A stretch of DNA of 64,000 nucleotides from Candidatus Woesearchaeota archaeon (GCA_023898345.1 CP060218.1:767777-831776); one strand, 5' to 3'. Positions 61,308-61,483 are shown, numbered from the stretch's first letter. The notes: generated by a model from the sequence alone, not told the origin. A program made the numbers and translations.

Positions 61308-61483
61308 CTGAACCCTGTCTCTGAACCCTGTCTCTGAACCCTGTCTCTGAACCCTGTCTCTGAACCCTGTCTCTGAACCCTGTCTCTGAACCCTGTCTCT
61401 GAACCCTGTCTCTGAACCCTGTCTCTGAACCCTGTCTCTGAACCCTGTCTCTGAACCCTGTCTCTGAACCCTGTCTCTGAACC
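61308..61483. repeat. Tandem repeat, 13-bp unit ctgaaccctgtct x 13.5
   Basis: Counted directly; 13 full units 61308-61476 plus 7 bp; no stop codon in any minus-strand frame. Confidence 0.9.

What the first reader, a model, noticed from the sequence alone, without database searches (positions are those of the whole stretch)
61308..61483. 13-bp tandem array between RT and target, open in all frames
Thirteen and a half copies of ctgaaccctgtct lie 4 nt upstream of the target ATG. The unit has no stop codon in any minus-strand frame, so the ORF caller reads RT, repeat (peptide repeat SETGFRDRVQRQG) and target as one 856-aa protein. The RT has no stop codon of its own before the array. Either this is a genuine RT-target fusion, or the array is a non-coding, possibly copy-number-variable element in the target promoter (13 is not a multiple of 3, so each unit gained or lost shifts the frame).
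Basis: seen in the sequence. Interest (0 to 1): 0.65.

Follow-up and report, generated by a model that had tools for sequence, protein, structure and literature searches.

The report
Expandable 13-base repeat before archaeal DGR target
A real, perfect 13-base repeat sits where the reverse-transcriptase gene of an archaeal diversity-generating retroelement (DGR) runs into its pilin-like target gene; it is most likely a slippage-prone, stop-free stretch that ribosomes read through, and the apparent RT-target fusion is a side effect seen only in this species.

Summary
There are 13.6 perfect copies of a 13-nt unit at 61307-61483, stop-free on the minus strand, so RT, repeat and target read as one 856-aa ORF. 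The locus is an active DGR of a Ca. Woesearchaeota genome.

The array position is conserved in at least 6 related DGRs. Units there are identical, related 13-mers, or a 7-mer, with 2 to 9.6 copies. A second target copy in the same genome carries only 1.6 copies.

Every locus has a TATA-like box 28-33 nt upstream of an ATG at the 5' edge of the array, which is this genome's leaderless-promoter spacing. That upstream ATG lies 1 mod 3 from the target ATG in all seven 13-mer junctions. Its ORF stops at +12..+14 of the target ORF in four species. The RT frame is not conserved, and the fusion occurs only here.

My best reading (inferred) is a translated, expandable spacer: an RT tail in one frame and a leaderless upstream ORF in another, delivering ribosomes to the target start.

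- Phase variation is plausible but untested.
- The 4.6-copy versions in draft assemblies look like assembly collapse.
- No reads, transcripts or proteomics were available.

The parts
61307..61483 (-). 13.6 perfect copies of GGTTCAGAGACAG (minus-strand reading). Purine-rich, stop-free in all three sense frames, and unstructured as RNA.
   Evidence: array; 0 sense stops, 1 antisense stop; fold z = +0.42; no Rfam family.
61290..61487 (-). Upstream ORF of 65 codons. It starts at the ATG at the 5' edge of the array (61487-61485), reads through the array, and stops at TAA 61292-61290, which is +12..+14 of the target ORF.
   Evidence: ORF 61290..61487 -; the distance from this ATG to the target ATG is 184 (1 mod 3), and four species share the same stop position.
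61511..61518 (-). TATA-like box TTTATAAG, 31 nt upstream of the upstream ATG. This is the candidate promoter of a leaderless transcript starting at the array edge. It lies inside the RT reading frame (the ..YKFKK.. codons).
   Evidence: TATA-like starts at -28..-33 from the upstream ATG in all 10 junctions; 29 of 41 TATA-like hits in the window fall at -35..-26 from gene starts.
61484..61491 (-). Second TATA-like element, TTTTATGT, overlapping the upstream ATG. It sits at the canonical -32 from the target ATG only when the array has 1.6 copies (paralogue T2). Here it is 188 nt away.
   Evidence: L031_T2: TATA-like at -32 from the target ATG; none within -45..-20 for win_T1.
61484..61580 (-). 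Last ~97 nt of the RT ORF, after the conserved ..FKGHCDLAN motif. This is a variable RT tail that doubles as the upstream region of the target. It was duplicated together with the array and target to form the second target locus T2.
   Evidence: duplication boundary at 61580; the 47 nt next to the array are identical in T1 and T2. (RT tails after GHCDLAN vary in length and sequence).
61484..62533 (-). DGR reverse transcriptase, 350 codons up to the array, with a GTG start.
   Evidence: RVT_1, E = 3.6e-24; homologues of 233-473 aa.
59963..61303 (-). DGR target T1 (446 aa). It has an N-terminal archaeal type IV pilin/archaellin-type signal (..KKAISPVVASVLLIVVAILAALGF) and a C-terminal FGE-sulfatase/C-type-lectin-like variable domain.
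   Evidence: TIGR02537, residues 24-45, 20.2 bits against a cut-off of 20. (FGE-sulfatase weak, 19.2 bits, below the 23.3 cut-off). (homologues annotated as pilin N-terminal or FGE-sulfatase).
59949..60093 (-). Variable region (VR) at the 3' end of the target.
   Evidence: 16 mismatches to TR within the repeat, 15 of them at TR adenines. VR differs between assemblies and TR does not.
58921..59065 (-). Template region (TR).
59107..59481 (-). Avd accessory protein (124 aa).
   Evidence: PF22296 bAvd, 53.9 bits against a cut-off of 40.
59471..59836 (-). Conserved 121-aa ORF of unknown function between the target and avd.
   Evidence: an ORF of the same size at the same position in L012, L014 and L017; not similar to Avd.

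Best explanation
The array is the expanded form of a short purine-rich spacer in the junction module of a Woesearchaeotal DGR. The module reads: RT tail with TATA box, then ATG, then array, then AAAA, then target ATG.

The array is kept by slippage and homogenisation. It can persist because it contains no stop codon.

Ribosomes coming from upstream read through it in two frames:
- as the dispensable C-terminal tail of the RT;
- as a leaderless upstream ORF that starts at the ATG on the 5' edge of the array (61487) and stops four codons into the target gene (TAA 61292-61290).

The pilin-like target is then translated from its own ATG (61303) by termination-reinitiation. Copy number sets the length of the leader/upstream ORF, the distance between the target's own TATA-like box and its ATG, and the frame in which upstream ribosomes arrive. 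So the array can tune or switch target expression.

The 856-aa RT-target fusion is a by-product in this species. A one-base change (TATATGG to TATGTGG) moved the upstream ATG by 2 nt. The copy number that keeps the upstream ORF in its usual frame puts the RT in frame with the target.

Shown here:
- the anatomy;
- conservation of position;
- copy-number differences between paralogues and between species;
- TATA spacing;
- frame conservation;
- the conserved position of the upstream-ORF stop.

Inferred, not shown:
- that transcription starts at the upstream ATG;
- that the upstream ORF is translated;
- that reinitiation occurs;
- that copy number changes expression.
For: 1. DGR context. RVT_1, bAvd and a TR/VR pair with 15 of 16 differences at TR adenines are present. 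VR varies between assemblies while TR is invariant.

2. Same architecture in relatives.
- L014: same unit, 9.6 copies.
- L011: same unit, 4.0 copies.
- L015: GGTACACAGAGAG, 2.1 copies.
- L012: GATTCAAGCAAGG, 2.9 copies.
- L038: GAACAGAAATCAG, 3.2 copies.
- L013: 7-mer GAAGCAG, 8.4 copies.
Each array is directly followed by the target ATG where the contig reaches it (the L015 contig ends first). The unit is identical in three species whose RTs are 65-75% identical, while the flanks have diverged.

3. The second target T2 in the same genome has no RT upstream. It keeps the 97-nt RT-tail remnant and a 1.6-copy array. The module therefore belongs to the target's expression signals.

4. Genes in the window have TATA-like boxes at -35..-26 from their ATG and no Shine-Dalgarno signal. 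The paralogous targets in L037 have TTTATAAT at -31. All 10 junctions have a TATA-like box at -28..-33 from the ATG at the array edge.

5. The distance from the upstream ATG to the target ATG is 1 mod 3 in all seven 13-mer junctions with an intact target (184, 67, 28, 130, 58, 52, 46). The upstream-ORF stop is at +12 in four species. The RT frame relative to the target ATG is 0 here but 2 in L014, L011, L012, L038 and L017 (for L011 and L038).

6. All four distinct 13-mers are stop-free on the sense strand. The probability is 0.26-0.47 each under shuffling; three of the four have an antisense stop.

7. Array-less L017 has the RT ORF overlapping the target start by 25 nt.

8. Termination-reinitiation coupling has been shown experimentally in an archaeon (PMC6728339).
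Against: - There is no transcript, ribosome-profiling, proteomic or read-level data. The transcription start site, upstream-ORF translation and reinitiation are all inferred from geometry.
- The TATA box and the upstream ATG lie inside the RT reading frame. Part of their conservation could be protein-coding constraint.
- The frame test rests on five species plus one paralogue pair, about 0.4-1.2% by chance. Phylogenetic non-independence cannot be fully excluded.
- In L012 the upstream ORF stops 9 nt before the target ATG, so its frame is irrelevant there.
- The 7-mer clade does not follow the rule. L013 is in frame, although its 59-nt array may be collapsed. P0132 reads as 2 mod 3, inferred from the protein only.
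- In this species GTG at the ancestral position could be the start instead. That would put the stop on the ATGA overlap.
- A stop 12 nt downstream of the restart codon requires back-scanning.
- The copy number 13.6 itself is unverified.
Confidence: 0.45

Rival explanations
1. The array is a true contingency locus (phase variation). Frequent slippage by +/- 1 unit toggles the DGR-diversified pilin-like protein between three states: coupled, N-terminally extended or fused, and uncoupled (OFF). This adds on/off switching on top of DGR hypervariation. It extends the best explanation rather than excluding it.
For: - The tract is long and perfect, which marks recent turnover.
- Unit lengths of 13 and 7 are both 1 mod 3.
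- The gene encodes a surface protein with a cleavable pilin-type signal.
- All sampled consensus genomes sit in one frame, as expected if the other frames are disfavoured.
- In L014 and L011 one alternative frame has no stop until about +50, which would uncouple the target.
- The paralogue T2 stays at 1.6 copies in four assemblies, while T1 has expanded.
Against: - No within-population length variation has been demonstrated.
- The only within-species difference for T1 (4.6 against 13.6 copies) is best explained by assembly collapse.
- In this species all three frames bring ribosomes to the target ATG (fusion, ATGA overlap, or stop at +12). A clean OFF state is therefore not evident.
- The phase-variation review read here names archaea only as a direction for future surveys (PMC11868660).
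Confidence: 0.2
2. The array is a neutral microsatellite in a transcribed leader. It has no role, and it is tolerated because the target is expressed from the RT operon mRNA or by internal initiation. The apparent frame conservation would be chance or shared ancestry.
For: - The array RNA has no structure beyond shuffled controls and no Rfam match.
- Unit sequences and even the period differ between clades.
- Array-less relatives work without it.
- A decayed locus, L016, still has 1.6 copies.
Against: - The position is conserved in at least 6 species.
- The unit is 13 of 13 identical across species whose flanks are only about 70% identical (my estimate by eye).
- All four 13-mers are stop-free.
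- The upstream-ORF frame and stop position are conserved despite different copy numbers.
- T2, which lacks an upstream RT, is the one copy that has not expanded.
Confidence: 0.2
3. RT and target form a genuine fusion protein joined by a flexible (SETGFRDRVQRQG)n linker. It might be processed by the prepilin peptidase at the pilin-type signal.
For: - One open frame of 856 aa exists here, and 817 aa in the draft assembly.
- The pilin-type signal would allow cleavage between the RT and the mature target (this is inference).
- All observed copy numbers in this species (1.6, 4.6, 13.6) keep the same frame.
Against: - The fusion frame is absent in L014, L011, L012, L038 and L017.
- No RT homologue among the best 120 exceeds 473 aa.
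- T2 has the same array without an RT.
- The target has its own conserved ATG right after the array in every species.
Confidence: 0.05
4. The array is a tandem set of binding sites, on DNA or on the RNA leader, for a regulator or for the ribosome (for example Shine-Dalgarno-like AGG cores used in reinitiation).
For: - The unit is strictly conserved in three species.
- All units are purine-rich (69-86%) and contain an AGG core across the unit junction (read from the unit sequences).
- Shine-Dalgarno motifs can aid reinitiation in archaea that do not use them for de novo initiation (PMC6728339).
Against: - No candidate binding protein is conserved next to the related DGRs.
- Units differ between clades, and one clade uses a 7-mer.
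- No 16S rRNA gene lies in the window, so anti-Shine-Dalgarno pairing could not be tested.
- There is no Shine-Dalgarno enrichment upstream of genes in the window.
Confidence: 0.07
5. The array, or its length, is an assembly artefact.
For: - Two drafts carry exactly 60 nt (4.6 copies). One of them, L002, is chimeric exactly at the array: T2-type upstream and T1-type downstream.
- 60 nt is the shortest path through a 13-nt cycle at k = 55 with the observed phase. This is my inference; the assemblers used are unknown.
- Several contigs end in or next to the array.
Against: - The array exists in independent assemblies and species at lengths well below read length: 21, 37, 42 and 52 nt.
- The 177-nt version comes from a 1.54-Mb single-contig assembly, and 177 nt does not match the collapse length predicted for k = 55, 77, 99, 127 or 141.
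- Only the exact number 13.6 is in doubt, not the feature.
Confidence: 0.03

Closest known systems
Simple-sequence-repeat contingency loci of bacteria, for example CTCTT repeats in the signal-peptide coding region of Neisseria opa genes (own knowledge; general review PMC11868660)
   Same: A perfect tandem tract whose unit is not a multiple of 3. It lies at the 5' end of a surface-protein gene, in a part that is removed from or outside the mature protein. Each unit shifts the frame. Copy number differs between gene copies.
   Different: The organism is an archaeon (DPANN). The unit is 13 nt rather than the 1-7 nt units I know from bacterial loci. The tract lies in an upstream ORF / RT tail that overlaps the target start, not in the target ORF itself. 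Switching has not been shown, and a clean OFF frame is not evident in this species.
Translational coupling by termination-reinitiation at overlapping gene pairs in archaea (Huber et al. 2019, PMC6728339)
   Same: A co-directional upstream reading frame ends within a few codons of the downstream start. The organism shows no Shine-Dalgarno-led de novo initiation. Genes in the window are tightly packed or overlapping.
   Different: The overlaps tested in that paper are 1 or 4 nt (TGATG or ATGA). Here the conserved stop is 12 nt downstream of the restart ATG. The upstream frame is a repeat-built ORF of variable length.
DGRs of DPANN archaea and CPR bacteria with pilin-like / C-type-lectin targets (survey PMC5758913; Paul et al. 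2017, own knowledge)
   Same: RT, Avd, a TR/VR pair with adenine mutagenesis, an FGE-sulfatase/CLec-type VR at the C-terminus, multiple targets, and chromosomal location in a small archaeal genome.
   Different: The two DGR papers searched here (PMC5758913 and PMC8144416) do not mention a tandem array at the RT-target junction, an RT ORF that runs into the target, or a repeat-built upstream ORF. Their only 'tandem repeat' hit concerns AAC triplets in TRs.
Leaderless archaeal promoters (TATA box about 25-30 nt upstream of a transcript that starts at the ATG; own knowledge, review PMC7531240 listed)
   Same: A TATA-like box at -28..-33 from the ATG at the array edge, the same spacing as most genes in the window.
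   Different: That ATG opens only a short repeat ORF, not the main gene. The main gene's own TATA-like box is pushed out of register by the expansion.
DRT2 'neo' never-ending ORF made by rolling-circle reverse transcription (own knowledge)
   Same: A stop-free tandem repeat next to a reverse transcriptase.
   Different: In DRT2 the repeat exists only as concatenated cDNA and encodes a toxic effector. Here the repeat is in the genome and next to a DGR-type RT. The match to the Drt2 model is far below its cut-off (49 bits against 390). Nothing suggests an RT-made product.

Membership tests
Diversity-generating retroelement (context of the array) | Reverse transcriptase gene in the cassette | tested here: met
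   RVT_1, E = 3.6e-24. The closest homologues are DGR-type RTs of Nanoarchaeia/Woesearchaeota MAGs.
Diversity-generating retroelement (context of the array) | TR/VR repeat pair differing almost only at TR adenines | tested here: met
   16 mismatches within the repeat, 15 of them at TR adenines.
Diversity-generating retroelement (context of the array) | Ongoing diversification of VR with an invariant TR | tested here: met
   The 8 VR sequences recovered from 6 assemblies, the window included, all differ at TR-adenine sites. All TR copies are identical.
Diversity-generating retroelement (context of the array) | Avd accessory gene | tested here: met
   PF22296 bAvd, 53.9 bits against a cut-off of 40. 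NCBIfam DivGenRetAVD scores 56 bits, below its equivalog cut-off of 80.
SSR-mediated phase-variable (contingency) locus | Perfect tandem tract with a unit that is not a multiple of 3, in or just upstream of a reading frame | tested here: met
   13.6 copies of a 13-nt unit, 100% identical. Related loci have 13-mers and a 7-mer.
SSR-mediated phase-variable (contingency) locus | Copy number varies among close relatives or within a population | tested here: inconclusive
   1.6 copies (T2) against 13.6 (T1) in one genome, and 2-9.6 copies in other species. The within-species difference for T1 (4.6 against 13.6) is probably assembly collapse. No reads were available.
SSR-mediated phase-variable (contingency) locus | Reversible ON/OFF change of expression with copy number | not testable with these tools
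   Needs reporters, proteomics or population sequencing.
Translational coupling by termination-reinitiation | The upstream co-directional ORF ends at or within a few codons of the downstream start | tested here: met
   The upstream-ORF stop is at +12..+14 of the target ORF in the window, L014, L011 and L038, and at -9 in L012.
Translational coupling by termination-reinitiation | Downstream translation depends on upstream translation | not testable with these tools
   Needs premature-stop reporter constructs, as in PMC6728339.
Leaderless archaeal promoter in front of the array | TATA box at the genome's usual distance from the ATG | tested here: met
   Genes in the window: 29 of 41 TATA-like hits at -35..-26. 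Upstream ATG: -28..-33 in all 10 junctions.
Leaderless archaeal promoter in front of the array | Transcript 5' end at the ATG | not testable with these tools
   No transcriptome data.
RT-target fusion protein | In-frame fusion conserved in orthologous elements | tested here: not met
   The RT frame relative to the target ATG is 2 mod 3 in L014, L011, L012, L038 and L017. The longest of 120 RT homologues is 473 aa.
Known structured RNA family | Match to an Rfam covariance model, or a fold better than shuffled controls | tested here: not met
   Only three tRNAs in the window. Fold z-score is +0.42.

The most novel reading that the evidence does not exclude
The array would be the first repeat-driven phase-variation switch described in an archaeon, and it is wired into a DGR. 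Slippage of a 13-nt (or 7-nt) stop-free repeat inside a leaderless upstream ORF would change how ribosomes reach the start codon of a DGR-diversified, pilin-like surface protein. The possible states are coupled, fused to the RT or to the upstream-ORF peptide and then trimmed by the prepilin peptidase, or uncoupled. An episymbiotic DPANN cell could then switch an adhesin on and off and also hypermutate its binding site.
Probability: 0.22. Interest if true: 0.8.

Novelty: new variant of a known kind. Interest (0 to 1): 0.55.

Why it matters
DGRs in DPANN archaea are thought to diversify surface proteins used to attach to hosts. How these targets are expressed is unknown.

A conserved, expandable, stop-free repeat at the RT-target junction suggests a second layer of variation or control on top of adenine mutagenesis. 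It would also be a concrete case of repeat-dependent translational control in a genome whose genes look mostly leaderless.

There are two practical consequences:
- 856- and 817-aa 'RT' proteins in databases are frame accidents of this junction.
- Short-read assemblies collapse or mis-join this locus (T1/T2 chimeras), so copy numbers in MAGs should not be trusted.

The prediction is directly testable with long reads from the source community and with simple reporters.

Tried and rejected
- **Exact look-up of the 856-aa fusion in the contig index:** not on record. It turned up later as USN43548.1 in a cluster listing.
- **Scans for two array units:** Genome contigs gave 0 hits, viral contigs 0, and metagenome contigs 1 (L014).
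- **RT-based scans:** Genome contigs gave only one close locus, whose contig ends before the array (L019), plus L017 again. Viral contigs gave only distant bacterial-type RTs.
- **Search with the repeat peptide:** only unrelated low-complexity proteins.
- **Tandem-peptide scan of the 120 RT homologues:** only P0018 at the thresholds used, because a 13-nt unit needs 6 or more units to give two peptide copies. The tails had to be read by eye.
- **Rfam search and RNA folding:** nothing.
- **Idea that L002 is an RT-deleted strain:** rejected. It is T2 upstream joined to T1 downstream at the array.
- **Idea that the array pairs with TR, VR or other DGR parts:** no match at up to 2 mismatches elsewhere in the cassette.
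- **Idea that the array is a DRT2-like RT product:** rejected, because it is genomic and the Drt2 score is far below the cut-off.
- **+1 frameshifting on the A5 run before the target ATG:** considered, then dropped because L038, L013 and L012 lack the run.
- **Literature:** no paper found for the assembly accessions. No mention of such arrays in the two DGR papers searched.
- **Look-up of P0241 (T2):** T2 was reached through a neighbouring window gene instead.

Full report
**1. The observation**

Tandem Repeats Finder reports one array at 61307-61483: period 13, 13.6 copies, 100% matches and no indels. It is the only sizeable tandem repeat in the 64-kb window. The exact unit occurs 13 times, against 1.2 matches expected by chance at up to 2 mismatches.

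On the minus strand the unit reads GGTTCAGAGACAG. The array ends 3-4 nt before an ATG at 61303. The unit has no stop in any sense frame.

The ORF list shows a single 856-aa frame, 59963-62533 (-), which translates the array as (SETGFRDRVQRQG)n. The same 856-aa protein is annotated in NCBI as USN43548.1, on a 1.54-Mb contig of a Candidatus Woesearchaeota archaeon.

**2. Context: an active DGR**

Reading the minus strand, the order is:
- RT (RVT_1);
- the array;
- a 446-aa target, with an archaellin/type IV pilin-type N-terminal signal (TIGR02537) and a weak FGE-sulfatase/C-type-lectin-like C-terminus;
- a conserved 121-aa ORF;
- Avd (bAvd);
- a template repeat at 58921-59065 that matches the target's 3' end at 59949-60093.

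Fifteen of the 16 TR/VR differences are at TR adenines. In other assemblies of the same species the VR differs at exactly those sites, while the TR is invariant. The DGR is therefore active. Ribosomal proteins L15e and S8e lie next to it, which marks an archaeon.

**3. The same genome has a second copy of the module**

A neighbouring-gene look-up reached the region beyond the window end. A second target, T2 (P0241), lies downstream of a CobA-like gene with no RT in front of it.

T2 is still preceded by a copy of the last 97 nt of the RT ORF, an array of only 1.6 units, AAAA and ATG. The same arrangement is seen in L030, and two further ENA assemblies encode the same 480-aa extended product (P0246, P0249).

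The T1/T2 duplication spans window 61580 to 59939. The 47 nt next to the array are identical, and 1055 nt of the ORF are identical. The differences cluster in the first 170 nt of the ORF and in the VR.

Two conclusions follow. The RT tail plus the array travel with the target, as its upstream region. The array length differs 1.6 against 13.6 between two recent paralogues.

**4. The draft assemblies are unreliable at this locus**

Two drafts, L001 and L002, have exactly 60 nt (4.6 copies).

L002 has T2-type sequence upstream of the array and T1-type sequence downstream. It is therefore a chimera joined at the array, not an RT-deleted strain.

Sixty nt is the shortest walk through a 13-nt cycle at k = 55 that keeps the observed phase (177 and 60 are both 8 mod 13). 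This is my inference; the assemblers used are unknown. Other contigs end in or beside the array.

I therefore do not count 4.6 against 13.6 as biological variation. The exact figure of 13.6 remains unverified.

**5. Related elements**

RT homologues at 50-75% identity have odd C-terminal tails. Their DNA shows arrays at the same place:

| Locus | Unit | Copies |
|---|---|---|
| L014 | same as window | 9.6 |
| L011 | same as window | 4.0 |
| L016 | same as window (one mismatch) | 1.6 (target decayed) |
| L015 | GGTACACAGAGAG | 2.1 |
| L012 | GATTCAAGCAAGG | 2.9 |
| L038 | GAACAGAAATCAG | 3.2 |
| L013 | GAAGCAG (7-mer) | 8.4 |

In every case where the contig continues, the target ATG follows within 4-12 nt.

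A more distant relative, L017 (RT 56% identical), has no array. Its RT ORF simply overlaps the target start by 25 nt. So an RT with no stop before the target ATG is the ancestral layout of this clade. The array is an insertion or expansion within that overlap.

**6. Promoter geometry**

For 45 long ORFs of the window, TATA-like hexamers pile up at -35..-26 from the ATG (29 of 41 hits). There is no Shine-Dalgarno signal. That pattern fits transcripts that start at or very near the ATG (leaderless), although no transcript data are available.

Two further target paralogues elsewhere in the genome have TTTATAAT at -31.

All ten junctions examined have a TATA-like box 28-33 nt upstream of an ATG that sits on the 5' edge of the array. 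In the window these are TTTATAAG at 61518-61511 and ATG at 61487-61485.

A second TATA-like element, TTTTAT(A/G)T, overlaps that ATG. It is at the canonical -32 from the target ATG only in the 1.6-copy loci, T2 and L016. In T1 it is 188 nt away.

**7. Reading frames**

The ATG at the array edge opens an ORF that runs through the array. Its distance to the target ATG is:

| Junction | Distance (nt) |
|---|---|
| window T1 | 184 |
| L001 | 67 |
| T2 | 28 |
| L014 | 130 |
| L011 | 58 |
| L012 | 52 |
| L038 | 46 |

All seven values are 1 mod 3. In the window, L014, L011 and L038 the upstream ORF stops at exactly +12..+14 of the target ORF; in L012 it stops at -9.

Copy numbers differ in all of these loci, so the frame has been kept through changes. 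Chance probability is about 0.4-1.2%, depending on how independence is counted.

The RT frame is not kept. It is in frame with the target only in this species, and 2 mod 3 in L014, L011, L012, L038 and L017 (for L014, L012 and L017; read for L011 and L038).

In this species the edge motif is TATGTGG instead of TATATGG, which moves the ATG by 2 nt. The unit count that restores the upstream-ORF frame puts the RT in frame with the target. That explains the 856-aa ORF as a by-product.

None of the 120 best RT homologues exceeds 473 aa.

All four distinct 13-mers are stop-free on the sense strand (P = 0.26-0.47 each), and three of the four have an antisense stop.

**8. Interpretation**

The array is neither a designed linker nor a simple non-coding promoter repeat. 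It is a slippage-prone, stop-free spacer that is transcribed and must be translated: as the RT tail, and probably as a leaderless upstream ORF.

My preferred mechanism is that ribosomes reading this upstream ORF (or the RT) terminate just inside the target gene and reinitiate at its ATG. Termination-reinitiation coupling has been shown in an archaeon (PMC6728339). Genes in this window are packed or overlapping.

Only stop-free units can expand without cutting this coupling, which would explain the open frames.

Copy number changes the leader length, the register of the target's own TATA-like box, and the arriving frame. It could therefore tune or switch expression.

These last steps are inference. 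No transcript, ribosome or protein data exist.

**9. Rivals**

- **True phase-variation switch.** This extends the same model. It is plausible but untested, and in this species all three frames still deliver ribosomes to the ATG (fusion, ATGA overlap, or stop at +12).
- **Neutral microsatellite.** This fits the lack of RNA structure (z = +0.42), the absence of an Rfam hit and the unit turnover. It does not fit the conserved position, the conserved unit across species, the stop-free units or the conserved frame.
- **Genuine fusion protein.** This is contradicted by the relatives.
- **Binding-site array.** This cannot be excluded, but it has no conserved partner gene.
- **Artefact.** The feature itself is not one, although its length is unverified.

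**10. Comparison with known systems and novelty**

The DGR itself is a normal member of the DPANN/CPR DGRs. The array works most like a bacterial simple-sequence contingency tract placed at the 5' end of a surface-protein gene. It is combined with archaeal leaderless initiation and termination-reinitiation.

Membership in 'phase-variable locus' is unproven, because population variation and ON/OFF effects were not testable. The two DGR papers I searched do not mention such arrays. A recent phase-variation review names archaea only as a direction for future surveys.

I rate it a new variant of a known kind, with interest 0.55.

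Noticed in passing
window 52135-52301: A 167-nt stretch inside ORF 52001-52843 is present in the window but absent from the draft assemblies L001 and L002. The length is not a multiple of 3, and no obvious repeat flanks it. It is either an assembly difference or a real indel.
   Followed up: partly
L037 5001-7593 (same genome, about 140 kb away on the draft contig): Two tandem paralogues of the target (407 and 433 aa) with short pilin-type signals. Each has TTTATAAT at -31 and no array. Their VR-like ends differ from the TR at non-adenine sites, so they may be former targets or targets of another TR.
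   Followed up: partly
L031 16126-17600 (-), beyond the window end: This DGR has a second target, T2, about 7 kb upstream of the RT. Its central 1055 nt are identical to T1, which suggests recent gene conversion. The VRs differ.
   Followed up: yes
window 62531-62533 (-): The RT ORF starts with GTG where all close homologues have ATG (MFDKF..). A TTTTAAAG box lies about 29 nt upstream.
   Followed up: no
window 59471-59836 (-): A 121-aa ORF between the target and avd. It overlaps avd by 11 nt and is conserved at the same position in L012, L014 and L017. It has no Pfam or NCBIfam hit and no similarity to Avd. It may be an unrecognised accessory protein of this DGR clade.
   Followed up: partly
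window 62852-63706 (+): A 284-aa protein transcribed divergently from the RT. Its N-terminus looks like a winged-helix DNA-binding domain by eye. It has no family hit and is not conserved next to related DGRs.
   Followed up: no
L003-L010, L033, P0245 contig: Short-read contigs of this species repeatedly break at the VR (population heterogeneity) and at the RT tail or array (T1/T2 repeat plus tandem array). MAG annotations of this locus (817-aa and 480-aa proteins) are affected by this.
   Followed up: partly
window 53058-56849 (+) and 44370-49607 (+): Very large ORFs (1263 and 1745 aa) without Pfam hits lie next to the DGR. I did not examine them.
   Followed up: no
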